DNA of 40,644 bases, taken from UHGV virus genome UHGV-0357162; one strand, given 5' to 3'. The notes beneath the pieces were generated by a model. The model did no database searches. It saw nothing but the letters and a program-made list of their open reading frames with translations, and was not told the origin of the DNA. Both the position numbers and the translations under genes were made by a program. Below are positions 1 to 21,888 of the stretch, in pieces; position 1 is the stretch's first letter, and each line of letters opens with the position of its first letter. This DNA comes from a virus.

Positions 1-575
1 ACCAACCCGGACTTGTTCCCCTTATAAAGTGGGAACGTGCCAAGGACCTTTCCGCCTAGTGTTAGTTGAAGTGTCGCCGCGTTGGTATTGTTCTGAACGG
101 GGAAAACGATAATCGGGGTTCGTAGCGTCCAGTCTGTACCTCCATTAACAAAAAACGTCGAGGGAAGTTCCAGCGTCAGTGCGTTTGCAGTGCCACCAGC
201 AACACCCGCAATATAATGACCGCTCTGAAGCTGCGCTATCTGTACGAAATAGTTTTCCGAACCACGCGTGGCAAAGTTAGCCACAACGTCATTAAGGGAC
301 CAACCTTTCGCGGTCGTTCCTTCCTGCCCACGAATGACTTTCAACACATCACCGCTTACCGATACCAGGTGACAAATCTCAAATGCAGACTCTTTATTAT
401 CGGTAAGCGTAATTTTTGCATAGACGCGTTGCCCGTTCGATTTATTTTCAAAATCGGCAGAAAGCAATTTTGCAAATTTAGCTCCCGTGCCCGGCATCAC
501 CGGAATATCAGTCTGAATCGTCGTGATATCGCCAGCCAGTGCTGAAACAACGTTATTGCCAAATCCAAGAATCAT
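1..575 (-). CDS. putative tail fibre / host-specificity protein, N-terminal part (partial; continues past window start)
   Basis: Minus-strand frame open from ATG at 573-575 to the window edge; N-terminus MILGFGNNVVSALAGDITTIQ; ATGA stop/start overlap with the upstream gene; sits after the J-like and I-position genes. Confidence 0.4.
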   Translation of the reverse strand, partial: MILGFGNNVVSALAGDITTIQTDIPVMPGTGAKFAKLLSADFENKSNGQRVYAKITLTDNKESAFEICHLVSVSGDVLKVIRGQEGTTAKGWSLNDVVANFATRGSENYFVQIAQLQSGHYIAGVAGGTANALTLELPSTFFVNGGTDWTLRTPIIVFPVQNNTNAATLQLTLGGKVLGTFPLYKGNKSGL

Positions 576-1198
576 TTTTGAATCACCGTTGTTGCATAGG
601 AATAAATAAAAGGGAGTTTTACATATTTCTGGTCAATGGCATCTTTAAGAAAATAGCCTATGCCATCGCCATACTCTGGTATCTGAATAGAAAAAACACT
701 GTCCGATACAGTCACACTCACATCAAAAGTATGCTGCAATGGCGGGTCTATTCCGTTTTTCCCATGAATGAACCGTGCCACACGGCGCTTTAACCAGTCA
801 ATGCAGAAATGCGAACCGTCAGCCTTATAAAAATTCCAAGTTAATATTCGCTTGAAATAATCATCCGGAACATACGATGCCTGCCCCGGAACATAATTCC
901 GCATTGCCGCATAAGGGATTGTATTGTATTCAATGGTATCGTATGCGCCGCGTGCAATAGCCTCCTCGGAAACCTGTAGTAAAGGCCTTTCAACGCCATA
1001 AATCCCGAGTGCAATCCAGTCCAGCAACTGCCCGGTTATTGATTCCGATGTCCAGCATGGCAATGCCAGATTGTTGAGTGAGTCGAGGTATTCCTGAGCA
1101 ATTTCATTGTATGCATCAAAGAACGCAACAACATTCGGATCATCTCTGTACTGCACAAATGGATAAGCAGGGAGAATTTTCTCAGTCAGATATTGCAT
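572..1198 (-). CDS. tail/baseplate protein in gpI position (hypothetical)
   Basis: Track ORF 572..1306; likely start at MQYLTEKIL (1198), overlapping the stop of the J-like gene; position between J-like gene and fibre. Confidence 0.4.
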   Translation of the reverse strand: MQYLTEKILPAYPFVQYRDDPNVVAFFDAYNEIAQEYLDSLNNLALPCWTSESITGQLLDWIALGIYGVERPLLQVSEEAIARGAYDTIEYNTIPYAAMRNYVPGQASYVPDDYFKRILTWNFYKADGSHFCIDWLKRRVARFIHGKNGIDPPLQHTFDVSVTVSDSVFSIQIPEYGDGIGYFLKDAIDQKYVKLPFIYSYATTVIQK

Positions 1199-2408
1199 GC
1201 TTGTTGACCTGAACCTGTGATGCCACCGTTGAAAAATAGGAATAGGTATCGCCATAAACCAGGCTTGTGTCTTTCGCCGGAAGAACAATATGGCCGTTAA
1301 TACCAATGCTCACACTGATTGTTGAGATCAACGTCGCATCAACCAGCAACCTGACGGAACTGGTAAAAATATCCTGGATACGCAGAAGATTTATCGGGTG
1401 TCCGACTTCAATTGAATTGATGTAATCAGCAACGTTTTGCTGCACAGCCATAGCAATACCCGCCGGATCAACATAATCATCAGACACCGTGTTCCAGGTG
1501 ATTAGCACCATGACGTTTTGTGATGACGGGATAACGAACGGCACCTGATAAACGTCCGGCGAAACGGTTATTGAAACCGTGCGTTTTTCCACTGCCGCAC
1601 CGGATGGATTGCTTACATCGTTGGTCAGTTTCGAAATATCCGGTACAGATTTGTAAATCGCATAAGCCACATCATACGGATCACCGCCACCAACAACCGC
1701 AACCCATTTCCCCAGCGACGACTGCCGAAAAGAAATCAGGTTTTCTCGCACACCGTTTACTGATTTGAGCATCGCTTTAAAGCAATCCGGTGTTCCCTGC
1801 ACACCAAACATGCCGGACTCCATGACTTCGGCGCGGTAAGATGCCCACGTTTGCGCCTCCTGACCTGGCATCCCTGCGGTAAGGTTCGTGCATTTTACAG
1901 GCTGGTCTTTTGGTACTGATGTAATGACCTGCGTCACGGTCCCTTCCGGTACAGCCCATGAGCCTGACGTTGTGGCCACACAGTAAACTGGCTCAGTCTG
2001 CCCGCTTTCCGGTATCACAGTATCGCGGGAAACCGCATACTGGTAGTTACCGTCACCAACCACAAATCCTTTAGGGATACCAAACCCCGGCAACGCCTCA
2101 AACACCACGTATACCGCCGTATTTGTACTTAATCCCTTCTGTGCTCCATATATGTTTCCGAGTTGCATCAGTAACGGAATATTCGCGCCGTATGGGCTTA
2201 CAGAGTTAATAAGGTCCACCCGCGCCTGGTCTATTAATGCCAGCGCCCCTACTGCCGTGCTGGCAAGGTCTGTAATAAGTCCTGCCGGAAGGTTGGCTGT
2301 ATATCCAGGTACTTTTTCAGCAACTCTGGTGATAAGATTCGCGAGCAAATCATTGGGTGGCGTAGGCTGCGCACCCGCACTGGTCATAGTAATTGGTATT
2401 TCTGACAT
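1182..2408 (-). CDS. baseplate J-like protein
   Basis: 408 aa; position and composition resemble the baseplate J family; compare in-window Mu gp47-like protein at 37690..38769. Confidence 0.55.
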   Translation of the reverse strand: MSEIPITMTSAGAQPTPPNDLLANLITRVAEKVPGYTANLPAGLITDLASTAVGALALIDQARVDLINSVSPYGANIPLLMQLGNIYGAQKGLSTNTAVYVVFEALPGFGIPKGFVVGDGNYQYAVSRDTVIPESGQTEPVYCVATTSGSWAVPEGTVTQVITSVPKDQPVKCTNLTAGMPGQEAQTWASYRAEVMESGMFGVQGTPDCFKAMLKSVNGVRENLISFRQSSLGKWVAVVGGGDPYDVAYAIYKSVPDISKLTNDVSNPSGAAVEKRTVSITVSPDVYQVPFVIPSSQNVMVLITWNTVSDDYVDPAGIAMAVQQNVADYINSIEVGHPINLLRIQDIFTSSVRLLVDATLISTISVSIGINGHIVLPAKDTSLVYGDTYSYFSTVASQVQVNKHAISD

Positions 2409-2422
2409 ATATCCCCTATATA

Positions 2423-2442
2423 AAAACCGCCGAAGCGGTTTT
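2423..2442 (-). terminator. rho-independent terminator downstream of the DUF1311-like moron
   Basis: Hairpin AAAACCGC-cgaa-GCGGTTTT; on the minus strand the stem is followed by TTTTTATAT; lies between the moron stop (2451) and the J-like start (2408). Confidence 0.5.
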
Positions 2443-2450
2443 AAGTTAAC

Positions 2451-3197
2451 TTATTTTGCCTGTTTCATTTTTTCCACCCTCTCAAGCATTCTTTTTACAT
2501 TTGATGGAGGATAGTTAAATTCATCGCCGTCTCCAAAAGAAATTTTTATAGGCTTCATTTTCATAACCAACTCTTTCAGAACTGCTTTACCAATTTCAGT
2601 TTTTGGCACTATAAAACCATTTCCATACAAGCATGATTTATAAGTTTTATAATATTCACCATTAATCAAAATTGGTGGATATTCTAATGGGCCATCAATT
2701 TGCACTGAATTATCGCAAAATCCATTACCTTTAGATTTTGAAGCAATAAAAATAGCTATTGTTCCATCATCGCCATACATCAGGAATCTATTTTTACTAA
2801 CACCTTCCAATGGAGGTAATATTATCAGTGCACCATCAATATACCATTCAGCGTAATTCTCTGATTCATTGATTATGTTCTCATTAATTTCATTTAAAGA
2901 TGAATATTCCCTGAATGCATTAGAATACCATTGTCGAACACATGATTCTGTTTTGCACTTCTCTCTTTCATTCCACAAGTCTGAAACAATTTTTCTAAAA
3001 GCTTTCTTATCAGTGCTCTCTAACTTTACTTTTTGATATAAAGAATTTAATTTATCATCAAGTTCAGATAATTCACTGTTGTTGCAAATTAACTTTTCAG
3101 AATATGATTTAGCTTTCGAGCAATCAAAAGATACTGCATTCGCAGTTCCTATTTGTAATAAAAAGGTAAACACTACAAATAATTTTAACTTAGACAT
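2451..3197 (-). CDS. secreted DUF1311/LprI-like protein (moron)
   Basis: Signal peptide MSKLKLFVVFTFLLQIGTANA; Cys-spaced motif FDCSKAKSYSEKLICNNSELSELDDKLNSLYQKV ... WYSNAFREY typical of the DUF1311 (lysozyme inhibitor LprI N-terminal) fold; GGAG RBS; markedly AT-rich relative to neighbours. Confidence 0.55.
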   Translation of the reverse strand: MSKLKLFVVFTFLLQIGTANAVSFDCSKAKSYSEKLICNNSELSELDDKLNSLYQKVKLESTDKKAFRKIVSDLWNEREKCKTESCVRQWYSNAFREYSSLNEINENIINESENYAEWYIDGALIILPPLEGVSKNRFLMYGDDGTIAIFIASKSKGNGFCDNSVQIDGPLEYPPILINGEYYKTYKSCLYGNGFIVPKTEIGKAVLKELVMKMKPIKISFGDGDEFNYPPSNVKRMLERVEKMKQAK

Positions 3198-3534
3198 CCT
3201 TAATCTCCTTATAAAACAGGAGAACAAATTTTACCCATTCTTAATGTCTGTTCAAGTTCATACTTTACAACCGCGCCCAGTTGAGTATGATTGGACGCAT
3301 GAGGCGTCGAAACCTCCCCCAAAAGCTGATTACCCAGCACCCTACAATGTGTTGGTTTTTTTATGCCTTTTTTTTGTGATGGCAATATGTGCGATCACAA
3401 CCCCGATCAATGTCGGGAGGGCGACGAATACAACACCCGAAAGGGGAATAAGTCCGCGGTATCTTTTGGGCCGTTTCGAACCTCCCGGCGCCACTACGTT
3501 AGTGGCAATTCGAAAAAAGCCAAAAGAGGTTACT

Positions 3535-4095
3535 ATGACCACCCAACTCATCACCGTGTTCAACGGAACCATTTCGAACGAAACCATCCTTCTATGCAAC
3601 GCTCGCGATCTGCATGCCTTTCTCGAAGTAGGTAAACGCTTTGCCACTTGGATTACCGAACGAATCAGCGAGTATGAATTCGTAGAAAATCAGGACTTTT
3701 TGATTATTTCCCAAAATCGGGAAAAAATCGGTAGAGGCAGACCAGCCAAAGACTACCATCTCACCCTGGACACCGCCAAAGAGCTGGCTATGGTCGAACG
3801 CAACGAAAAAGGACGCCAGATCCGCCGATACTTCATCGAGTGCGAGAAGAAGCTGCGCGAAGATACCACCAGCACACAATCCCCTCTGAATGTTGACATC
3901 ATCATGCGCGTCAGAAACGGCTCGGTTACCCACATTGAGCACCACAAATCAGGCTCAGTTATAACCACAGAATGGGCAATTCACTTACTACGCAAAAGTG
4001 GATGGATTGTCATGCCACGCGATGAACTTCTTAACACGCCACTGGCCCAATTGATACCCGAAAACTTGCCTCAAACCGGAACCTGCGTCCGGTAA
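3535..4095 (+). CDS. phage anti-repressor, AntA N-terminal domain plus KilA-C-like C-terminal domain
   Basis: Start MTTQLITVFNG with RBS AAAGAGG; motifs ATWITERISEYEFVENQDF (AntA-like) and DYHLTLDTAKELAMVERNEKGRQIRRYFIECEKK (KilAC-like). Opposite strand to the surrounding tail genes; the long track ORF 3079..4095 is an upstream extension. Confidence 0.7.
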   Translation: MTTQLITVFNGTISNETILLCNARDLHAFLEVGKRFATWITERISEYEFVENQDFLIISQNREKIGRGRPAKDYHLTLDTAKELAMVERNEKGRQIRRYFIECEKKLREDTTSTQSPLNVDIIMRVRNGSVTHIEHHKSGSVITTEWAIHLLRKSGWIVMPRDELLNTPLAQLIPENLPQTGTCVR

Positions 4096-4418
4096 CTGGT
4101 TCCGTTAAAAAACACAACATCGATGTTATAGGTGGGGTTCTCTGCCCCATCTACTTTTGAAATTGCCAGCGATGCAAAATACCCGGCATACTGTTGCTGA
4201 ACCATGTTCACATAGTAGTCCGGGTAAATCTGCTGCACGATGCACTGCTGCGCTGGAATGCCGTAATTCGCGTAAAACGGCGACTCCCCCAACCCCAGCT
4301 TTAACGTCTGAATGAGCGTCGTCAGCCAGCCGTAGGAGAAATCACCGTTGGCGTCTGACTCTACCGCCACCCATTTTTTGTTGCCGTTCGCGTCGGTGAC
4401 GCGGCCCCATGTTCTCAT
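4071..4418 (-). CDS. hypothetical tail-module protein (gpW position)
   Basis: Track ORF 4071..4451; likely start MRTWGRV at 4418 with GAGGG RBS; no recognisable gp25/W motif, so function unassigned. Confidence 0.4.
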   Translation of the reverse strand: MRTWGRVTDANGNKKWVAVESDANGDFSYGWLTTLIQTLKLGLGESPFYANYGIPAQQCIVQQIYPDYYVNMVQQQYAGYFASLAISKVDGAENPTYNIDVVFFNGTSYRTQVPV

Positions 4419-4425
4419 CGTGCCC

Positions 4426-4572
4426 TCACCACCATCGGATCTGGCCAACAAAATACCCAGACGCCAGAATCAGAAAGACCAACCAGATAAGTAAAAACTT
4501 CCAATTGGGAAATTTCTCGCCCATAACTCGAATCTCAACTAGTAATTTATAAACAATGAAAAGAAACTTCAT
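4426..4572 (-). CDS. small hydrophobic peptide, paralog A (48 aa from ATG 4572, or 32 aa from ATG 4524)
   Basis: MKFLFIVYKLLVEIRVMGEKFPNWKFLLIWLVFLILASGYFVGQIRWW; AAGGGA RBS before 4572; paralogous to 4691..4789. Confidence 0.4.
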   Translation of the reverse strand: MKFLFIVYKLLVEIRVMGEKFPNWKFLLIWLVFLILASGYFVGQIRWW

Positions 4573-4690
4573 ACAAATCCCTTTGTAACAATTACTTATA
4601 CCAAGTCATTCTATGCTTGAGTTCACGTAGCAAATCATCCATGAAGTAATTTGTTGTTTTTTCATTGCTATATGTAAAGTTATGTAAAAA

Positions 4691-4789
4691 TTACCGCCAC
4701 CGGATCGCCTGAATCAAAGCGGATAGTCCAAATAAGAAAAACACACGCCATATCAACAGGAATTTCCAGTTGGGTAATCTTTCGCCCAT
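4691..4789 (-). CDS. small hydrophobic peptide, paralog B (32 aa)
   Basis: MGERLPNWKFLLIWRVFFLFGLSALIQAIRWR; AAGGAG RBS 9 nt upstream; shares MGE(K/R)xPNWKFLLIW with paralog A. Confidence 0.4.
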   Translation of the reverse strand: MGERLPNWKFLLIWRVFFLFGLSALIQAIRWR

Positions 4790-4806
4790 TTCTCGTAACT
4801 CCTTTA

Positions 4807-4971
4807 TCAGTTTTTCAGGTAAATCAATGTACCCGCCACTAATGCAGTACAAATGATCCAGGCAACAGGCGTAAGTACGTGACGAATCCCTCGGCATACC
4901 GCGATTATCCTCGCAGCCTTATCTGCTCCTTGCGGAGTTGTCTCAGCCTTAAGAATCAGTTCGCTATCCAT
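4807..4971 (-). CDS. small membrane protein (54 aa)
   Basis: MDSELILKAETTPQGADKAARIIAVCRGIRHVLTPVAWIICTALVAGTLIYLKN; polar N-terminus and one predicted TM segment; below the ORF-track length cutoff; start overlaps the end of the upstream mini-ORF. Confidence 0.35.
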   Translation of the reverse strand: MDSELILKAETTPQGADKAARIIAVCRGIRHVLTPVAWIICTALVAGTLIYLKN

Positions 4972-5056
4972 TTAGAACCTTTATGATCTCTGCGATTCCC
5001 GGAAGAGATTTAGCAACAGCAAACCCTCCGATAACTATAAGAACTGCATAAAACAT
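4964..5056 (-). CDS. small hydrophobic peptide (30 aa)
   Basis: MFYAVLIVIGGFAVAKSLPGIAEIIKVLNG; first gene after the terminator at 5191..5224. Confidence 0.25.
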   Translation of the reverse strand: MFYAVLIVIGGFAVAKSLPGIAEIIKVLNG

Positions 5057-5190
5057 TCTTCTCAGAACCGGACTTCTTTCGAGCAATTTTAGAGCTTCCA
5101 CAATCCAGTCTCCTCCGCTAAAATTAATCACGGAAGACCTCCAAACATACGTAATTATCCCTTGCCTTATTCAAGGTCAGAAACAGAAAA

Positions 5191-5224
5191 CCCCGACTGG
5201 GCCAACAGTCGGGGTTTTCGTTTT
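5191..5224 (-). terminator. rho-independent terminator downstream of the spike-like gene
   Basis: Stem CCCCGACTG / CAGTCGGGG with 6-nt loop, A-run on one side and TTTTCGTTTT on the other (bidirectional architecture). Confidence 0.55.
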
Positions 5225-5256
5225 ATGGGTAGTATTTAAAGTGAAATGAACCGGTA

Positions 5257-5970
5257 TTAACCCGGATTTGGTTTCTTCGACGTGATCGTACTGCCACCGC
5301 TTTGAACACCAGTCACATCGTGACTGTGGCTGCTGGCGCTCACGCCGTTGATAACTGCATCTTTCTCGACCTTAAGAGGACCAATCAGCGAAGCGGTTGT
5401 ATCCTTCATCTGGGCTTTGTCCTGGACGATCGGTCCGTTGAGGTGAATTTGACCGTTCATGAAGATATCTTCGGCCTCGAGGTAAACAGCTTTCGACTTT
5501 AGCCTGATTTCTTCCGGTGCCACCGTTACCGAGCTACTGCCGTCCTCTGTTTTGATGATCGCGCCATCCGGACCGTACAAAACGATTTTTTGCGGATCTT
5601 CGTCGGACCAGTCCTTGTTTGCCAGTGGCACGAAAAACAGGGGAGTGAGCGACATCGAGTAAGAGAGCGTCGCCATACCGGTTCCCAATCCGGACACACC
5701 GCGCAGGGATACATCAGCGGCAATTGTTACTCCTCGATCACCCGGCTGTATCGGGTAACGGATATACGGGAATGTGGCGACAGGGATTGTTATCTGCGGA
5801 AAGTTGATCCCCTCTGGCAACATATCAAACTGAACGGTCACTATCTGCCCACTGACATCGACAACATGGCAGGGCAATTCACGGCCTTTAAGCTCGGCTT
5901 GCTGGTTGCCAGAACTGGTCATCATCTCCGACAGCGTTCGGAGAAACGGTAATTTTTGAGCGTTTGACAT
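5257..5970 (-). CDS. baseplate central spike protein (gpV-like)
   Basis: 237 aa; C-terminus INGVSASSHSHDVTGVQSGGSTITSKKP resembles the His-rich apex of gpV/gp5-type spikes; ATGA overlap with the upstream gene. Confidence 0.55.
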   Translation of the reverse strand: MSNAQKLPFLRTLSEMMTSSGNQQAELKGRELPCHVVDVSGQIVTVQFDMLPEGINFPQITIPVATFPYIRYPIQPGDRGVTIAADVSLRGVSGLGTGMATLSYSMSLTPLFFVPLANKDWSDEDPQKIVLYGPDGAIIKTEDGSSSVTVAPEEIRLKSKAVYLEAEDIFMNGQIHLNGPIVQDKAQMKDTTASLIGPLKVEKDAVINGVSASSHSHDVTGVQSGGSTITSKKPNPG

Positions 5971-6965
5971 TACACCCTCGCCCAGTTCTCAGCATATGCC
6001 TCAAATACCGTCACCCAGGCATCGCCATCAGCTGTCAGATACGAACCAATGTGTCTGACCGATTTCACAAGAAATTTCCCGGTGAACGTGGTCGAATTTT
6101 TTGCGATAACGCTGGGTGCCGTTGTATTAGCCATCACAATCGACGCAGCGCCAGAATATAGCCCCTCCGGCAGTTTAACCACATCACCACATCTGATATC
6201 GCCTCTCATAGGACATTTGAAACTGACGGTAAACGGCGCTATCCATGTCGGCTGCCCGACCAGTTCATGGGCATGAATTGTTTTTGGCTCCCCCCACTTT
6301 GCTGACGCGTTATCGTAAATTCGTATTCTGTCGGAAAGAATACTGATGGCAATCCCGCTGTATTTCTCATCGCGCATCATTGCAATTGAAGCACTACGGA
6401 GGACCATAGCCAGCGAACCAATATCTTCGTAGGTTCCATTCCACGGTTCCGGCAAAACGAGGCTGTCGCTGACAGTACAATCGATCAACTTATTCGGAAA
6501 TGCCTTTTGCAACGCACGGAAGATTACATCACCAACCTTTTCCCCTTTAAGCCCCTCCCCCTCGATAGAGAACGGTTTACCATCATCTGTTTTGCGTACG
6601 GTTGGATTTATTACCAGGTTTAAGGTCTGGTTCGTGCCGATCCAGTTGGCATAGGCCAGATAAATTTCGCCATAAATAACCTCACCCTGTTGCTGTGGAT
6701 TTGCCAAAGGCAATCCCTCAACAAAGCCCGCTTTCATACGGACCAGACACCCCTGCAAACTCACGCTTTGCTTCAGCATGTCGATAGGCAAACCGTATAT
6801 TGTGAGCATCGTTCCTGAATTCACTACATCAAGACCCGCTACCTCTGTGGGGTAGTGATCAATTCTGGGCGGAGTTCGTGCAGCCTGGTAGAACCTGCAA
6901 GCCTTGTGTGGCGCGGGGTATGGTGATTTAGTGTGATTCTGGGCGGATTTGTGAGAAATGACCAA
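5970..6965 (-). CDS. baseplate hub-like protein, possibly 5'-truncated at the Mu-like prophage junction
   Basis: Track ORF starts at a TTG; the first ~28 codons (MVISHKSAQNHTKSPYPAPHKACRFY) look like translated non-coding DNA and overlap repeats 6863..6946; confident coding from about residue 30 (PRIDHYPTEVAGLDVV) or from M at 6809. Confidence 0.4.
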   Translation of the reverse strand: MVISHKSAQNHTKSPYPAPHKACRFYQAARTPPRIDHYPTEVAGLDVVNSGTMLTIYGLPIDMLKQSVSLQGCLVRMKAGFVEGLPLANPQQQGEVIYGEIYLAYANWIGTNQTLNLVINPTVRKTDDGKPFSIEGEGLKGEKVGDVIFRALQKAFPNKLIDCTVSDSLVLPEPWNGTYEDIGSLAMVLRSASIAMMRDEKYSGIAISILSDRIRIYDNASAKWGEPKTIHAHELVGQPTWIAPFTVSFKCPMRGDIRCGDVVKLPEGLYSGAASIVMANTTAPSVIAKNSTTFTGKFLVKSVRHIGSYLTADGDAWVTVFEAYAENWARV

Positions 6966-17888: not shown

Positions 17889-18156
17889 CCTTGCCGGTAT
17901 CGTGAACGTCTGGCTGTGTCTCGCCATTGTGCTGGGGTTGTTTGTGTATCGCCGCCACGGTGCGGCGCATAAACCGATGATTACCTGGTTGGCGTACTGG
18001 CTGATGCTCGGCTACATCATCATCCCGTTCCGCTGGCTGTCCGGTACATACACGCACTCCAGCTGGCTGGTTGTGGCGCTGAATCTGGTTTTCTGTGCGC
18101 TTATCGTGTGGGCGCACGGGAATTTGTCAAAAATCCTTTCGTTATTGCGGAGGTGA
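17878..18156 (+). CDS. membrane protein (holin/antiholin-like)
   Basis: 92 aa, strongly hydrophobic with several Trp; GGAGG RBS; overlaps the end of the previous gene. Confidence 0.4.
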   Translation: MESSLAGIVNVWLCLAIVLGLFVYRRHGAAHKPMITWLAYWLMLGYIIIPFRWLSGTYTHSSWLVVALNLVFCALIVWAHGNLSKILSLLRR

Positions 18157-18158
18157 AT

Positions 18159-18536
18159 ATGTCGGGAAAATTCCGTTTCAGTCAACGTAGCGAAAAAAAT
18201 CTGGCTGGCGTAAAGCCACAACTGGTGGCGGTTGTACGCCGTGCACTGGCGTTGTCGGACGTCGATTTTGGTATTACCGAAGGTTTACGCACGAAAGAAC
18301 GTCAGAAACAACTTGTCGCTGAAGGCAAGAGCCAGACCATGAACAGCCGTCACCTTACTGGCGATGCCGTTGATGTCGTGGCTTACGTTGGTAGCACCAT
18401 TTCATGGGACTGGCCGTTATACGAAAAAATCGCCCGTGCCTTTAAACAGGCTGCCGCAGAACTGGGTGTCGCCATCGAATGGGGCGGAGACTGGAAAACG
18501 CTGAAAGACGGGCCTCATTTCCAGTTAAAACGCTGA
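18159..18536 (+). CDS. endolysin, peptidase M15 family
   Basis: Start MSGKFRF after GGAGGTG RBS; zinc-ligand motifs SRHLTGDAVD and DGPHFQ typical of M15 peptidases. Confidence 0.75.
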   Translation: MSGKFRFSQRSEKNLAGVKPQLVAVVRRALALSDVDFGITEGLRTKERQKQLVAEGKSQTMNSRHLTGDAVDVVAYVGSTISWDWPLYEKIARAFKQAAAELGVAIEWGGDWKTLKDGPHFQLKR

Positions 18537-18752: not shown

Positions 18753-18959
18753 GTGAGCATTATCAGATTTACAGAATACACAGGTTCAGGAGGTGCTGGC
18801 GCTGTCATGGTGCTCGCTGAACGCATCACCCATTTTTACCGTCAGTACGGTACACATGATGGCACAGTCATTGAACTGGATACCGGGAAAAACGTGTTCG
18901 TTCTTGAAAATCCCGACGAAGTTCAGCGCAGGATTGAACAGGCTCAGAAGGACACTTAA
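18753..18959 (+). CDS. hypothetical protein
   Basis: 68 aa ORF between the lysis genes and the gp27-like gene. Confidence 0.35.
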   Translation: MSIIRFTEYTGSGGAGAVMVLAERITHFYRQYGTHDGTVIELDTGKNVFVLENPDEVQRRIEQAQKDT

Positions 18960-19459
18960 TGGCGTGGTCACAGGATATCAGGGACAAAGTCCGTAACGGG
19001 TACATCTTTGACCAGCTTCCGCTGGATATCGTCGCCATGAAGTACGCCGTGCCGCACGATACCGCGCGGCGCTGGAAAACGCAGGCGATGAAGAACGGCG
19101 ACGACTGGGACAAGCTGCGGGCCGCGCACGCGCTCGCCGGTGACGGGCTGGAAAGTGTCGCCCGCACCGTGCTTATCAGTCTGGTGGTGAAGTGTCAGAC
19201 GACGCTTGAACGGCTGAACCAGAACCCGGACATCCCGCCGCAGGAGTCCGTCGAACTGCTGGCGAGTCTGTCCGACAGTCTCAGTAAGGCGGTGGCCAGT
19301 AGCAAAAAAATCCTGCCGGAAACCGACCGGCTCGCCACGGCACTGGAAGTGGTGCAGCGGCTCGGCGCGTTCATCAAGGAGCGTCACCCGGCACAGTATG
19401 CCGCGTTCCTTGAGGTGCTCGAAGGCTTCGCTAAAGAGCTTGAGGATAATTTCAGTTAA
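18959..19459 (+). CDS. Mu gp27-like protein (DUF1804), putative terminase small subunit
   Basis: 166 aa; conserved position upstream of the large terminase in Mu-like phages. Confidence 0.5.
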   Translation: MAWSQDIRDKVRNGYIFDQLPLDIVAMKYAVPHDTARRWKTQAMKNGDDWDKLRAAHALAGDGLESVARTVLISLVVKCQTTLERLNQNPDIPPQESVELLASLSDSLSKAVASSKKILPETDRLATALEVVQRLGAFIKERHPAQYAAFLEVLEGFAKELEDNFS

Positions 19460-19505
19460 CCACAGCGGCCCGGTTTTCCGGGCCGTCTGATATTCGGGAT
19501 TTGTA

Positions 19506-20246
19506 ATGCAAAAACAGATTATTGGTAACGCAACGTTGTATTGCGGTGATGTTCTTGATGTGCTGCCGGCGTTATCCGAACGTTTTGATGCCGTCATTAC
19601 CGACCCGCCTTACAGCAGTGGTGGCACACACAAATCAGACCGCAGCATGGCCCCTTCGGACAAGTATGTCGGTCACACCCAGTATGCCGAGTTCACCGGC
19701 GATAACCGCGACCAGCGCAGCTGGGCGTTCTGGTGTTCCATGTGGATATCTCATGCATTGCACAGACTGAATCCCGGCGGTTATTTCATGGTGTTCAGTG
19801 ACTGGCGACAACTACCGGCGCTTACCGATGCATTTCAGGCCGGTGGTGTGCTGTGGCGCGGTCTGGTTGTCTGGGATAAAACGCTTGCTTCCCGTGCGCC
19901 ACACACCGGCTATTTCCGGCATCAGGCCGAGTATGTGGTCTGGGGCAGCAACGGAAAACTCGACAAATGTCCGCACGGTGGCCCGTTCCCGGGCGTGATT
20001 ACGCAGCGTGTTGTCCCGTCCGAAAAACTGCACATGACCGCAAAGCCGGTTCAGCTGATGGCCGAGCTGGTTAAACCGCTGGCACCGGATGCGCACGTCC
20101 TCGATCCGTTTATGGGAAGCGGCACCACCGCCATCCCTGTACTTGCCCGTGGCGGACGGTTTACCGGCATTGAAATGACTAACCAGTATTTTGATATCGC
20201 CTGCGCACGTCTCGAAAAAGCGCAGGCAGAAGCAGCGCAGGTGTGA
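19506..20246 (+). CDS. DNA methyltransferase, beta-class (N6-adenine or N4-cytosine)
   Basis: DPPY catalytic motif near residue 33 and AdoMet motif DPFMGSGTT near residue 203, i.e. motif IV before motif I. Confidence 0.75.
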   Translation: MQKQIIGNATLYCGDVLDVLPALSERFDAVITDPPYSSGGTHKSDRSMAPSDKYVGHTQYAEFTGDNRDQRSWAFWCSMWISHALHRLNPGGYFMVFSDWRQLPALTDAFQAGGVLWRGLVVWDKTLASRAPHTGYFRHQAEYVVWGSNGKLDKCPHGGPFPGVITQRVVPSEKLHMTAKPVQLMAELVKPLAPDAHVLDPFMGSGTTAIPVLARGGRFTGIEMTNQYFDIACARLEKAQAEAAQV

Positions 20247-20247
20247 C

Positions 20248-21888
20248 GTGGCAAAACGTAAACTTTCCATTAAAGAGTTTCAGAGAAGCCTGCAGGAGTA
20301 CATCGCCAACCTCCGCCAGACCATTGAGGCTGAATGTCTGGGGTTCGATGTTAACCCACAGGCCACACAGGCCCGCCGGGCGGCAGTCTGCGATCCGGTG
20401 ACGGGCTATGATTATTTTGTCGAAAATTATTTCCCGCACTACGTCCGCAACCCGGCAAAAAGCGAGCTGCATAAATACCTGTTCAGCCGTCTGCCACAGG
20501 TTGTGGCAAGCCCGGACCCGGAGAACGACGCCATCGCCGCGCCCCGTGGTGAAGCAAAATCCACGCTGGTGACGCAGCTGTTTACCCTGTGGACCATTAT
20601 CCAGGCCATTAAGCATTACCCGGTCATCATTATGGACAGTATCGACCAGGCTTATCCGATGCTGGAAGCCATCAAGGCTGAACTGGAATTTAACCCCCGT
20701 TTAAAAAACGATTTCCCGGAAGTGTGCGGGCAGGGGCGCGTCTGGCGTATGGGGACCATCGTCACGGCCAACAATATCAAGGTGACCGTTGCCGGTAGTG
20801 GTAAAAAGCTGCGTGGTCTGCGCCACGGTCCGTACCGTCCTGACCTGGTTATCCTCGACGACATCGAGAACGACGAGATGGTGCGTAACCCGGAGCAGCG
20901 CGACAAGCTACATGACTGGCTCACCAAAACCGTGATGCCGCTGGGCGAGGCTGGCGGTAAAACAGATATTATTTATATCGGGACCATCCTGCATTACGAC
21001 TCCGTACTGTCGCGCACACTCAATAACCCGATGTGGAAAACGGCCCGTTTTAAGGCCGTCATTCAGTGGCCTGCCAATATGAAACTGTGGGACGAGTGGG
21101 AAGAACTCATCCGCAACAAACAGCCGGAAGCGGCGGAGGCACTTTACCGGCAGAACGAAGCCGAGATGCTCGCCGGGTCGGTGGTGTCATGGGCGGCGCG
21201 TCCCCTGCTGGCGCTGATGAAAATCCGTGTCCGTGATGGTCACGACACCTTTGATTCTGAATACCAGAACGACCCGGTCAGCGGTGAAGATGCGCTGTTT
21301 GCGGGCTGCATTAAGTTCTGGGTTAACCGTCTTGATGAATGGGTGTTTTATGGTGCTGTTGACCCCAGTCTCGGGAAGAAAAACAAAAACCGCGACCCGT
21401 CGGCCATTCTCGTGGGGGGCTTTAACCGCTTTACCGGCATTCTGGATGTGGTTGAAGCCGATATCCGCCGACGTCTGCCGAATAAACTTATCGAAGACGT
21501 GATTAAGTATCAGCGGGAATATCACTGCCTGTGCTGGTCGTTTGAGTCCGTCCAGTTTCAGGAGTTTCTGCGTACCGTGCTGGTTGAGCGTTCGGCGGCG
21601 CTGGGCGTACCGGTTCCGGCGCTGCCGGTCATCCCGCTGGAGGATAAGGCGCTGCGTATTGAATCCCTTCAGCCGCATATGGCCAACGGCCTGATTCGTA
21701 TCAGCCACACACATCAGACACTGATTGACCAGCTGCGCCACTACCCCAAAGCCGACCACGATGATGGCCCGGACTGTCTGCACATGCTGTGGACGCTGGC
21801 GGTATCGCGCAGCGCAAAATTTCAGATTCACACCCCACGCAGCAGCGGGCGTGACCGTGGCGGGCGTTTTGGTTCAGGAGGATGGTAA
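20248..21888 (+). CDS. terminase large subunit (Mu gp28-like)
   Basis: About 547 aa from GTG 20248; the track ORF begins at a TTG at 20191 inside the methyltransferase gene; followed by portal with overlapping start. Confidence 0.7.
   Translation: MAKRKLSIKEFQRSLQEYIANLRQTIEAECLGFDVNPQATQARRAAVCDPVTGYDYFVENYFPHYVRNPAKSELHKYLFSRLPQVVASPDPENDAIAAPRGEAKSTLVTQLFTLWTIIQAIKHYPVIIMDSIDQAYPMLEAIKAELEFNPRLKNDFPEVCGQGRVWRMGTIVTANNIKVTVAGSGKKLRGLRHGPYRPDLVILDDIENDEMVRNPEQRDKLHDWLTKTVMPLGEAGGKTDIIYIGTILHYDSVLSRTLNNPMWKTARFKAVIQWPANMKLWDEWEELIRNKQPEAAEALYRQNEAEMLAGSVVSWAARPLLALMKIRVRDGHDTFDSEYQNDPVSGEDALFAGCIKFWVNRLDEWVFYGAVDPSLGKKNKNRDPSAILVGGFNRFTGILDVVEADIRRRLPNKLIEDVIKYQREYHCLCWSFESVQFQEFLRTVLVERSAALGVPVPALPVIPLEDKALRIESLQPHMANGLIRISHTHQTLIDQLRHYPKADHDDGPDCLHMLWTLAVSRSAKFQIHTPRSSGRDRGGRFGSGGW

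What the first reader, a model, noticed from the sequence alone, without database searches (positions are those of the whole stretch)
19466..20246. Orphan beta-class DNA methyltransferase inserted between the small and large terminase genes
A 246-aa methyltransferase with DPPY (motif IV) preceding the AdoMet motif DPFMGSGTT (motif I) sits between the gp27-like and terminase genes, where Mu has no gene, and is preceded by a GC-rich stem-loop (CGGCCCGG-tttt-CCGGGCCG, 19466..19485). No restriction endonuclease partner is visible, so this is probably a phage anti-restriction or epigenetic methylase expressed with the late genes.
Basis: partly seen in the sequence, partly recalled or inferred. Interest (0 to 1): 0.45.

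Follow-up and report, generated by a model that had tools for sequence, protein, structure and literature searches.

The report
Orphan phage adenine methyltransferase gene cassette
A Mu-like prophage of E. coli carries an intact stand-alone DNA methyltransferase gene as an optional cassette just upstream of its large terminase gene; it most likely methylates phage DNA before packaging to evade restriction, and is an ordinary member of a widespread, already annotated phage enzyme family.

Summary
Window 19506..20246 (+) encodes an intact 246-aa beta-class amino-methyltransferase, with DPPY ahead of DPFMGSG. It lies between a DUF1804 gene and the large terminase gene of a Mu-like E. coli prophage, and no restriction enzyme gene is present.

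Near-identical prophages (about 98%) exist with and without the gene. It is therefore a discrete 743-bp cassette (19495..20237) that replaces 7 bp of a 52-bp spacer.

The GC-rich hairpin (19465..19486) is real and stable. It is also present in relatives that lack the methyltransferase, so it belongs to the phage backbone, not to the cassette.

The gene is under purifying selection (dN/dS 0.05-0.3). It has no promoter-like site of its own, and its stop codon lies 1 nt before the terminase start codon.

Homologues (43-62% identical) occupy other late-operon slots in Mu-like prophages. In P2-like phages they sit directly behind a Com translational regulator, the protein that controls Mu's mom gene. 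This lineage has neither com nor mom.

The best reading is a late-expressed orphan N6-adenine methyltransferase that protects packaged DNA from restriction, analogous to Mom. Its target sequence is unknown. It is a new member of a known kind, of low to moderate interest.

The parts
19506..20246 (+). Orphan beta-class DNA amino-methyltransferase CDS (246 aa, stop included)
   Evidence: ORF list; Pfam PF01555 E 7.6e-24; PHROG 67; PADLOC MTase_II 6.8e-64; AF2 model with pLDDT 84.6 matching CcrM, M.BceJIV and M1.HpyAVI; profile against PDB best hit M1.HpyAVI, 6.7e-29, full length
19602..19613 (+). Motif IV, DPPY (residues 33-36), catalytic / target-base pocket
   Evidence: Read from the sequence. 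T32-D-P-P-Y-S-S-G39 is invariant across the 48 homologues, which are 55-93% identical to the query
20103..20123 (+). Motif I, DPFMGSG (residues 200-206), AdoMet binding
   Evidence: Read from the sequence. D200, F202, M203, G204 and S205 are invariant. The motif aligns to motif I of M.BceJIV, CcrM and M1.HpyAVI
19495..20237 (+). Extent of the inserted cassette relative to methyltransferase-less sister prophages (743 bp replacing 7 bp, TGTATAC or TGCATAC)
   Evidence: Alignment of the junctions with E. coli 47-1826, UMNF18 and tcmA_3. The DUF1804-to-TerL gap is 792 nt with the gene and 56 nt without it in IMG/VR relatives
19465..19486 (+). GC-rich hairpin (9-bp stem including a closing G.U pair, UUUU loop), 6 nt after the DUF1804 stop codon; a backbone element, not part of the cassette
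   Evidence: Fold z = -3.58. Identical in methyltransferase-less relatives. The Yersinia-lineage copy, ATGGCCCGG-TTAT-CCGGGCCAT, keeps the stem through one C-G to U-A double change. Not flagged as a terminator because it lacks a T-run. No Rfam family matches
19496..19499 (+). Weak Shine-Dalgarno (GGGA), 6 nt before the methyltransferase ATG; lies inside the cassette
   Evidence: Read from the sequence
20239..20243 (+). Terminase Shine-Dalgarno (AGGTG), embedded in the last codons of the methyltransferase; backbone sequence shared with methyltransferase-less relatives
   Evidence: The methyltransferase stop codon TGA (20244..20246) lies 1 nt before the terminase GTG at 20248
18959..19459 (+). 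DUF1804 gene (positional counterpart of Mu gp27, putative small terminase / DNA-binding protein)
   Evidence: Pfam DUF1804 5.7e-53; PHROG 756 'DNA binding protein'; not BLASTP-similar to Mu gp27
20248..21888 (+). Large terminase gene
   Evidence: PHROG 38 5e-144; NCBIfam TIGR01630 3.7e-25; annotated terL in RefSeq relatives

Best explanation
The gene encodes an active, stand-alone (orphan) beta-class DNA N6-adenine methyltransferase, carried as an optional accessory cassette in the late operon of a Mu-like prophage. It has no promoter of its own. It is transcribed with the lysis and head genes after the Mor/C-type late activator fires, and it is translated immediately ahead of, and probably coupled to, the large terminase. 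The enzyme therefore appears only late in lytic growth and methylates replicated phage DNA just before headful packaging. The injected genome is then pre-protected against adenine-methylation-sensitive restriction systems in the next host. This is the job done by Mom in Mu and by Dam-like enzymes in FluMu, Pnm1 and B3. Shown here: gene integrity, class, conserved motifs, predicted fold, purifying selection, orphan status, cassette boundaries, and late-operon placement. Inferred: N6-adenine rather than N4-cytosine (from DPPY), timing of expression, the anti-restriction role, and the target sequence, which is unknown. The closest solved relative has a short TRD and relaxed 4-bp specificity, which hints at a short or degenerate site.
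For: Class and integrity. The protein hits Pfam, PHROG and PADLOC methyltransferase models. Motifs IV and I are invariant in 48 homologues. The AF2 model (pLDDT 84.6) matches CcrM, M.BceJIV and M1.HpyAVI at Foldseek E of about 1e-13 to 1e-15. A family profile aligns full-length to M1.HpyAVI at 6.7e-29. Selection: dN/dS is 0.05-0.31 against five homologues. Orphan status: the neighbours are DUF1804 and the terminase, and the annotated 98%-identical prophage contains only phage genes. Cassette: sister prophages about 98% identical lack exactly this gene. In IMG/VR, 13 close relatives carry it and 7 do not. Late expression: the gene is on the same strand as its neighbours, with a 46-nt gap upstream and a 1-nt gap downstream. 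No sigma-70-like site lies between 16512 and 22000 on the + strand. Functional analogy to Mom: homologues 43-58% identical lie directly behind a Com translational regulator. These are in P2-like phages and prophages: Chuche, Smp131, a Delftia prophage, KS5 and E. coli O145 (PMC3091744). Com also precedes mom in Mu and the unrelated alpha-class methyltransferases of B3 and FluMu (PMC3299994). This prophage lineage has no com or mom at its right end. Other Mu-like prophages carry the same family elsewhere in the late operon: between holin and lysozyme in Salmonella, after the portal gene, and between holin and an M15 peptidase.
Against: No methylation data exist for this enzyme or, as far as I could find, for any close homologue, so activity, modified base and target site are untested. 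Sister prophages do well without the gene and also lack mom, so it is dispensable. Com, which marks the family as Mom-like elsewhere, is absent here. DPPY favours adenine but does not exclude N4-cytosine. A stable hairpin just upstream could lower read-through into the gene.
Confidence: 0.6

Rival explanations
1. The enzyme is a non-specific or near non-specific adenine 'hypermethylase', functionally like Hia5, Hin1523 or M.EcoGII. It would modify most adenines in phage DNA and be toxic if expressed early, which would explain why relatives are held under Com control.
For: The family is Com-linked in 23 of 80 IMG/VR loci and in several phages. The protein is small (246 aa). A low-confidence loop follows DPPY, and the region between the conserved hairpin loop and motif X is short. 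The closest solved relative, M1.HpyAVI, has a short disordered TRD and promiscuous specificity (PMC5173035). Non-specific methyltransferases replace Mom in other Mu-like prophages (PMC3299994).
Against: No biochemical data exist. The enzyme is unrelated in sequence to Hia5-type alpha-class enzymes; B3 ORF48, for example, has DPPY at residue 178 and BLASTP E 1.9. It is not a close relative of M.EcoGII: the tblastn search of phages at E <= 1e-10 named Escherichia phage Chuche, and Escherichia was not among the ten commonest organism names, although M.EcoGII-like genes occur in E. coli and enterobacterial phages (PMC5778455). In this prophage the gene sits without Com in a bulk late operon.
Confidence: 0.2
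2. The enzyme acts mainly as an epigenetic or regulatory methylase, changing host or phage gene expression or marking DNA for packaging, rather than protecting against restriction.
For: Orphan phage methyltransferases can rewire host transcription, as PamA does in S. aureus (bioRxiv 10.1101/2024.04.17.589803). The gene is adjacent to, and probably translationally coupled with, the terminase gene.
Against: It has no promoter of its own and sits in a late lytic operon, so it is unlikely to be made in lysogens. Homologues occur in many unrelated late-operon slots (holin/lysin, after the portal gene, prophage end), so proximity to the terminase is not conserved. Sister phages that lack it package with the same terminase, which is 99% identical.
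Confidence: 0.1
3. The enzyme makes N4-methylcytosine rather than N6-methyladenine.
For: Pfam PF01555 covers both activities. The rotifer N4C methyltransferase and M.PvuII are among the structural matches.
Against: Motif IV is DPPY and is invariant in the family. From established knowledge, N4C enzymes typically have SPPY/SPPF. The top sequence and fold matches are adenine enzymes.
Confidence: 0.07
4. The hairpin at 19465..19486 is a regulatory element of the methyltransferase: a Com-type RNA target, a translational operator, or the terminator of a moron cassette.
For: It lies 20 nt upstream of the ATG and is very stable. In Mu, Com acts on a hairpin upstream of mom (established knowledge).
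Against: The identical hairpin is present where the methyltransferase is absent, between DUF1804 and terL. It is absent from more distant relatives that carry the methyltransferase in the same slot (L024-L026). No Com-like ORF exists in the window. It has no T-run and no Rfam match.
Confidence: 0.03

Closest known systems
Com-linked beta-class N4/N6 methyltransferases of P2-like phages (Burkholderia phage KS5 gp20, Stenotrophomonas phage Smp131 gp04, Escherichia phage Chuche, E. coli P2-like prophages)
   Same: Same protein family: 43-54% identity over the full length, with E 5e-61 to KS5 gp20. Same size (about 250 aa), orphan, and encoded among the late genes of temperate myoviruses.
   Different: Those genes overlap an upstream Com zinc-finger translational regulator. 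The window gene has no Com and is embedded between DUF1804 and the terminase of a transposable phage. None of these enzymes has a reported recognition site.
Hia5 / Hin1523 / Nma1821 and B3 ORF48 (methyltransferases that stand in for Mom in Mu-like phages)
   Same: Orphan adenine methyltransferases of Mu-like (pro)phages that lack mom. They are presumed to be late-expressed anti-restriction enzymes (PMC3299994).
   Different: Those are alpha-class, Dam-like enzymes, with motif I before DPPY. They are Com-linked, and Hia5, Hin1523 and Nma1821 lie at the mom position. B3 ORF48 shows no similarity to the window protein. Here the class is beta, the position is upstream of the terminase, and Com is absent.
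Mom (phage Mu)
   Same: Presumed role: a late, phage-encoded adenine modification that protects packaged DNA from restriction.
   Different: Mom is an unrelated acetamido-transferase at the right end of Mu, under Com, C and Dam/OxyR control. This prophage lineage has no com or mom.
M1.HpyAVI (H. pylori; PDB 5HEK/5HFJ), with CcrM and M.BceJIV as fold relatives
   Same: Closest solved relative by profile: 6.7e-29, aligned end to end. It is a small beta-class N6-adenine methyltransferase with a DPPY motif, a flexible loop after DPPY, a conserved minor-groove hairpin loop (HRRY, against GYFRHQ here), and a short TRD.
   Different: Identity is only about 22%. M1.HpyAVI belongs to a type II R-M system and recognises GAGG/GGAG/GAAG (PMC5173035). 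The specificity of the window enzyme cannot be transferred from it.
M.EcoGII (non-specific beta-class methyltransferase of E. coli prophages)
   Same: A beta-class, prophage-borne, orphan enzyme that is silent in lysogens (PMC5778455).
   Different: It is 349 aa and is described as residing on a cryptic prophage of E. coli O104:H4, with similar genes in E. coli and enterobacterial phages (PMC5778455). The indirect evidence suggests it is not a close relative. I did not make a direct comparison because I did not have the sequence.

Membership tests
Beta-class amino (N6A/N4C) DNA methyltransferases, Pfam PF01555 | Motif IV (D/S/N)PP(Y/F) lies N-terminal to motif I (FxGxG), with the TRD between them | tested here: met
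   DPPY is at residues 33-36 and FMGSG at 202-206. Both are invariant in the family
Beta-class amino (N6A/N4C) DNA methyltransferases, Pfam PF01555 | Score above the curated Pfam gathering threshold | tested here: met
   85.3 bits against a cut-off of 26.7
Beta-class amino (N6A/N4C) DNA methyltransferases, Pfam PF01555 | Seven-stranded AdoMet-methyltransferase fold resembling solved beta-class enzymes | tested here: met
   The AF2 model has pLDDT 84.6 and pTM 0.84. Foldseek top hits are CcrM, M.BceJIV, N4CMT, M1.HpyAVI, MboIIA and RsrI, with E 1e-15 to 1e-10
Beta-class amino (N6A/N4C) DNA methyltransferases, Pfam PF01555 | AdoMet-dependent methyl transfer to DNA, with a functional homodimer | not testable with these tools
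   Needs an enzyme assay and oligomer analysis
N6-adenine-specific (as opposed to N4-cytosine) enzymes | D/N at the first position of motif IV; the product is m6A | tested here: inconclusive
   The DPPY sequence is present and the best relatives are adenine enzymes. The product itself cannot be determined computationally
Type II restriction-modification system | A cognate restriction endonuclease gene adjacent to the methyltransferase | tested here: not met
   The flanking genes are DUF1804 and the terminase. PADLOC finds nothing in the neighbours. The 98%-identical annotated prophage has no endonuclease
Com-controlled modification module (com-mom type) | A small Cys4 zinc-finger Com ORF immediately upstream of, or overlapping, the modification gene | tested here: not met
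   tblastn with three Com proteins and a CxxC...CxxC scan find no Com in the window. Com is present upstream of homologues in P2-like phages
Hia5/Hin1523-type non-specific methyltransferases of Mu-like prophages | Alpha-class (Dam-like) motif order, a position syntenic with mom, and an upstream Com gene | tested here: not met
   The motif order is beta. The gene lies in the DUF1804-terL gap, not at the right end. It shows no similarity to B3 ORF48, another Com-linked alpha-class methyltransferase of a Mu-like phage
Hia5/Hin1523-type or M.EcoGII-type non-specific methyltransferases (function) | Methylation of adenine in nearly any sequence context | not testable with these tools
   Requires SMRT, LC-MS or restriction-protection assays
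Rho-independent terminator (for the hairpin 19465..19486) | A GC-rich stem-loop followed directly by a U-tract | tested here: not met
   The stem is present, but the tail is TCTGATATTC and the site is not flagged by the terminator scan
Mu gp27 / gp28 (small / large terminase) homologues, for the flanking genes | Significant sequence similarity to Mu gp27 and gp28 | tested here: not met
   BLASTP E is 0.61 and 0.02. The family assignments rest on Pfam DUF1804 and PHROG 38. The nearest phage relatives of the DUF1804 protein are D3112/DMS3-like phages, at 51% identity

The most novel reading that the evidence does not exclude
This roughly 250-aa beta-class family may be a third, independent type of Mom substitute, after Mom itself and the alpha-class Hia5-type enzymes. 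It would be a short-site or promiscuous adenine methyltransferase, harmful enough that P2-like phages gate it with Com. In this Mu-like lineage Com control would have been replaced by placing the gene directly in front of, and translationally coupled to, the terminase, so that methylation is timed to packaging.
Probability: 0.25. Interest if true: 0.45.

Novelty: new member of a known kind. Interest (0 to 1): 0.2.

Why it matters
The practical value is modest. Natural prophage pairs that are about 98% identical, with and without the gene, offer a clean test of what a late-expressed orphan methyltransferase contributes to host range; examples are E. coli B1172 or E2348/69 against 47-1826 or UMNF18. 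The recurrent pairing of Com with three unrelated modification enzymes (Mom, alpha-class and this beta-class family) suggests a general rule: temperate phages treat DNA-modifying enzymes as dangerous late cargo. If the enzyme turned out to have very relaxed specificity, it would be a compact 246-aa candidate tool for footprinting methods of the kind that use Hia5 or M.EcoGII. Otherwise this is routine prophage annotation.

Tried and rejected
1. The hairpin as part of the cassette, or as a Com-type or terminator control element. Rejected because it is identical in methyltransferase-less relatives. It is also absent in more distant methyltransferase-carrying relatives, has no T-run and has no Rfam match.

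2. A hidden Com gene in the window. None was found by tblastn with three Com proteins or by a Cys4 motif scan.

3. Complementary distribution of the methyltransferase and mom. Rejected because both methyltransferase-plus and methyltransferase-minus prophages lack com and mom at the right end.

4. Homology to the methyltransferases known to replace Mom in Mu-like phages. Hia5 and Hin1523 are alpha-class according to PMC3299994, and B3 ORF48 is unrelated by BLASTP.

5. A compositional signal of recent foreign origin. There is none: GC is 0.564, against 0.56-0.60 in the flanks.

6. A near-identical sequence among sequenced phages. Megablast found none; only protein-level relatives of 54% identity or less exist in the phage collection.

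7. Literature on the specificity of this family. Searches for the Bordetella BPP-1 Bpm enzyme, for Mu-like prophage methylomes and for DUF1804 gave nothing usable. One search failed on syntax. PamA of S. aureus proved to be a different 141-aa NPPY enzyme.

8. Direct similarity of the flanking genes to Mu gp27 and gp28. Not significant.

It was rerun with alignment A3.

Full report
**Observation.** The window carries an ATG-initiated ORF at 19506..20246 (+) of 246 aa. DPPY is residues 33-36 (nt 19602..19613) and DPFMGSG is residues 200-206 (nt 20103..20123). Motif IV therefore precedes motif I, which is the beta-class order. The protein hits Pfam N6_N4_Mtase at 85.3 bits against a cut-off of 26.7. 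It also hits PHROG 67 'DNA methyltransferase' at 8e-54 and a PADLOC type II methyltransferase model at 6.8e-64 over its full length. NCBIfam gives only sub-threshold hits to a generic DNA methyltransferase subfamily and to CcrM. It extends by a G.U pair to 19465..19486, begins 6 nt after the stop codon of the upstream gene, and ends 20 nt before the methyltransferase ATG. A 91-nt context folds at -29.9 kcal/mol, z = -3.58, and none of 200 shuffles folds as well.

**Context.** The upstream gene (18959..19459) is DUF1804 (5.7e-53). The downstream genes are a large terminase (20248..21888; PHROG 38, 5e-144) and a Mu-type portal. The window from about 6846 onward is a Mu-like transposable prophage, about 98% identical to prophages in complete E. 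coli genomes. In E. coli B1172 the annotated element runs in this order: repressor, Mu transposase, GemA, Mor-family activator, holins, endolysin, DUF1804, 'DNA-methyltransferase', terL, portal, head genes, tail genes, tail fibres. It is inserted in ydiS and has no com or mom at its right end. No endonuclease gene is present, so the methyltransferase is orphan. In phage Mu, gp27 and gp28 are 8 nt apart, so Mu indeed has no gene at this position. However, the window's DUF1804 protein and terminase are not significantly similar to Mu gp27 and gp28 by BLASTP. The nearest phage relatives of the DUF1804 protein are D3112/DMS3-type Pseudomonas transposable phages, at 51% identity. 'gp27-like small terminase' is thus a positional and family-level label.

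**The gene is a cassette and the hairpin is not part of it.** A sensitive DNA search of complete E. coli genomes found 35 genomes with the full DUF1804-methyltransferase-terL segment. It also found records (47-1826, OkiPb01703, UMNF18 and tcmA_3 are examples) where flanks 98% identical are joined with no methyltransferase between them. The junction alignment shows shared sequence through ...CCGGGCCGTCTGATATT (window 19494) and again from CAGGTGTGACGTGG (window 20238). The methyltransferase-plus form has 743 bp (19495..20237) where the methyltransferase-minus form has 7 bp. The hairpin is base-for-base identical in the methyltransferase-minus phages, where it sits between DUF1804 and terL. The last three codons of the methyltransferase (CAG GTG TGA) are backbone sequence that doubles as the terL Shine-Dalgarno, and the terL GTG follows the stop codon by 1 nt.

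In IMG/VR, close relatives (DUF1804 at least 95% identical) split 13 with the gene and 7 without. Relatives at 76-78% split 3 with and 1 without, and some carry an extra small insert. Relatives at about 55% have other short inserts or none. The DUF1804-terL spacer is therefore a variable accessory-gene slot.

The hairpin recurs in a Yersinia-lineage prophage as ATGGCCCGG-TTAT-CCGGGCCAT, with one compensatory C-G to U-A change. It is missing from more distant relatives, including ones that carry the methyltransferase in the same slot. It lacks a T-run and is not flagged as a terminator, and it matches no Rfam family. I regard it as a lineage-specific backbone RNA or DNA structure. It may be an mRNA-stabilising or attenuating hairpin at the lysis/packaging boundary. 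Its role is undetermined, and it is not a regulator specific to the methyltransferase.

**The protein.** A word-indexed search returned more than 7000 relatives, all PF01555. They range from 93% identity in E. coli through 74-81% in other Enterobacterales to 55-60% in Betaproteobacteria. In 48 aligned homologues the blocks TDPPYSSG, DW.QL, W.K...R.PH.GY.RHQ.EY..WG, H.T.KP and D.FMGS are invariant or nearly so. dN/dS against five homologues is 0.05-0.31. Synonymous divergence of the methyltransferase exceeds that of its flanks in some pairs, with dS 1.24 against 0.41-0.45, which suggests allelic exchange within the slot. GC content matches the flanks.

An AlphaFold2 model (pLDDT 84.6, pTM 0.84) has low confidence only in the loop after DPPY (residues 39-68) and around residues 131-134. 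Foldseek places it with CcrM, M.BceJIV, the rotifer N4C methyltransferase, M1.HpyAVI, MboIIA and RsrI. A family profile aligns end to end with M1.HpyAVI at 6.7e-29. M1.HpyAVI is a small dimeric beta-class adenine methyltransferase with a short disordered TRD and relaxed GAGG/GGAG/GAAG specificity (PMC5173035). DPPY and the nearest relatives favour N6-adenine. The target sequence cannot be inferred.

**Where else the family lives.** Homologues occupy several different late-operon positions:
- A Yersinia Mu-like prophage has a 79% homologue in the same slot.
- Salmonella Mu-like prophages carry a 62% homologue between the holin and the lysozyme.
- Other Mu-type contigs have it next to the portal gene.
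- An E. coli myovirus-type prophage has it between the holin and an M15 peptidase.

In P2-like phages and prophages the homologue (43-58% identical) overlaps an upstream Com zinc-finger gene. Examples are Chuche, Smp131, a Delftia prophage, Burkholderia KS5 and E. coli O145. The KS5 pair was described in 2010 (PMC3091744). Of 80 IMG/VR loci, 23 have Com immediately upstream. Com is the translational activator of mom in Mu. It also precedes the unrelated alpha-class methyltransferases of B3, FluMu, Pnm1 and the Hia5 locus, which have been shown to be nearly non-specific adenine methyltransferases standing in for Mom (PMC3299994). The window has no Com. B3 ORF48 is unrelated to the window protein.

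**Mechanism proposed.** The gene has no promoter-like site of its own; the only + strand site between 16400 and 22000 lies upstream of the Mor-family gene. It is squeezed between late genes. It is therefore most likely transcribed with the late lysis/head operon and translated just ahead of the terminase. The enzyme would then methylate adenines in replicated phage DNA shortly before headful packaging. This would protect the genome from restriction in the next host, which is a role analogous to Mom.

This rests on context and analogy, and I give it 0.6. A relaxed-specificity 'hypermethylase' version of the same idea is plausible but untested (0.2). A regulatory or epigenetic role (0.1) and N4-cytosine specificity (0.07) are less likely. 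A methyltransferase-specific function for the hairpin is essentially excluded (0.03).

**Novelty and verdict.** The gene is already annotated as a DNA methyltransferase in RefSeq. It belongs to a very large phage-associated family, and family members have been noted in the phage literature. The idea that Mu-like phages without mom carry a methyltransferase is also established. Three things are new here. The first is the precise definition of the cassette and its presence/absence polymorphism. The second is the reassignment of the hairpin to the backbone. The third is the observation that this beta-class family is a third enzyme type that pairs with Com in other phages. This is a new member of a known kind, with interest about 0.2.

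Noticed in passing
window 1..6845 and the junction at about 6845/6846: The left 6.8 kb is not host core genome. It is another prophage's tail/baseplate region, 100% identical to E. coli STEC711. The similarity stops inside an intact 335-aa gene of that strain (FNE87_RS12880). The Mu-like element in the window has therefore transposed into a resident prophage and split one of its genes.
   Followed up: partly
window 3412..3497 (+): An Rfam hit above the gathering score to sRNA-Xcc1 (72.5 bits, E 1.9e-11), inside the flanking resident prophage.
   Followed up: no
window 18108..18536; L005, L006, L007 609..1154; L014 2503..3048: Endolysin module swapping within prophages that are otherwise about 98% identical. 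The window and B1172 carry an M15 peptidase. 47-1826, UMNF18, tcmA_3 and the Yersinia relative carry a GH108 lysozyme. The small ORFs between the endolysin and DUF1804 also vary.
   Followed up: no
window about 19725..19830 (methyltransferase residues about 74-108): The 93%-identical E. coli allele (P0001) differs from the window protein almost entirely in one block just after the post-DPPY loop (WAFWCSMWISHALHRLNPGGYF against WAYWSTPWMSGAARLVRPGGYV). In some relatives the methyltransferase has far higher synonymous divergence than its flanks, with dS 1.24 against about 0.43. Both observations point to mosaic allelic exchange inside the cassette.
   Followed up: partly
L015-L017 4001..4753; L139 3213..3965; L027 4977..5789; L032 5001..5753: The same methyltransferase family sits in quite different late-operon slots in other prophages: between holin and lysozyme (Salmonella Mu-like), between holin and an M15 peptidase (E. 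coli 2013C-3033), after gpX in a P2-like contig, and between a Gin-type invertase and the tail sheath gene, which resembles the P2 Z/fun moron site.
   Followed up: partly
L143 14864..15813 (Pseudomonas phage B3): B3's Com plus alpha-class methyltransferase pair lies in the middle of the tail gene cluster, between a tail chaperone gene and the tape-measure gene, not at the genome end. This is another example of a modification module embedded in a structural operon of a transposable phage.
   Followed up: no
L140 3400..5055 (phage Mu record NC_000929): Mu gp28 is labelled 'putative portal protein' in this RefSeq record although gp29 is the portal. It is probably a legacy mis-annotation of the large terminase.
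   Followed up: no
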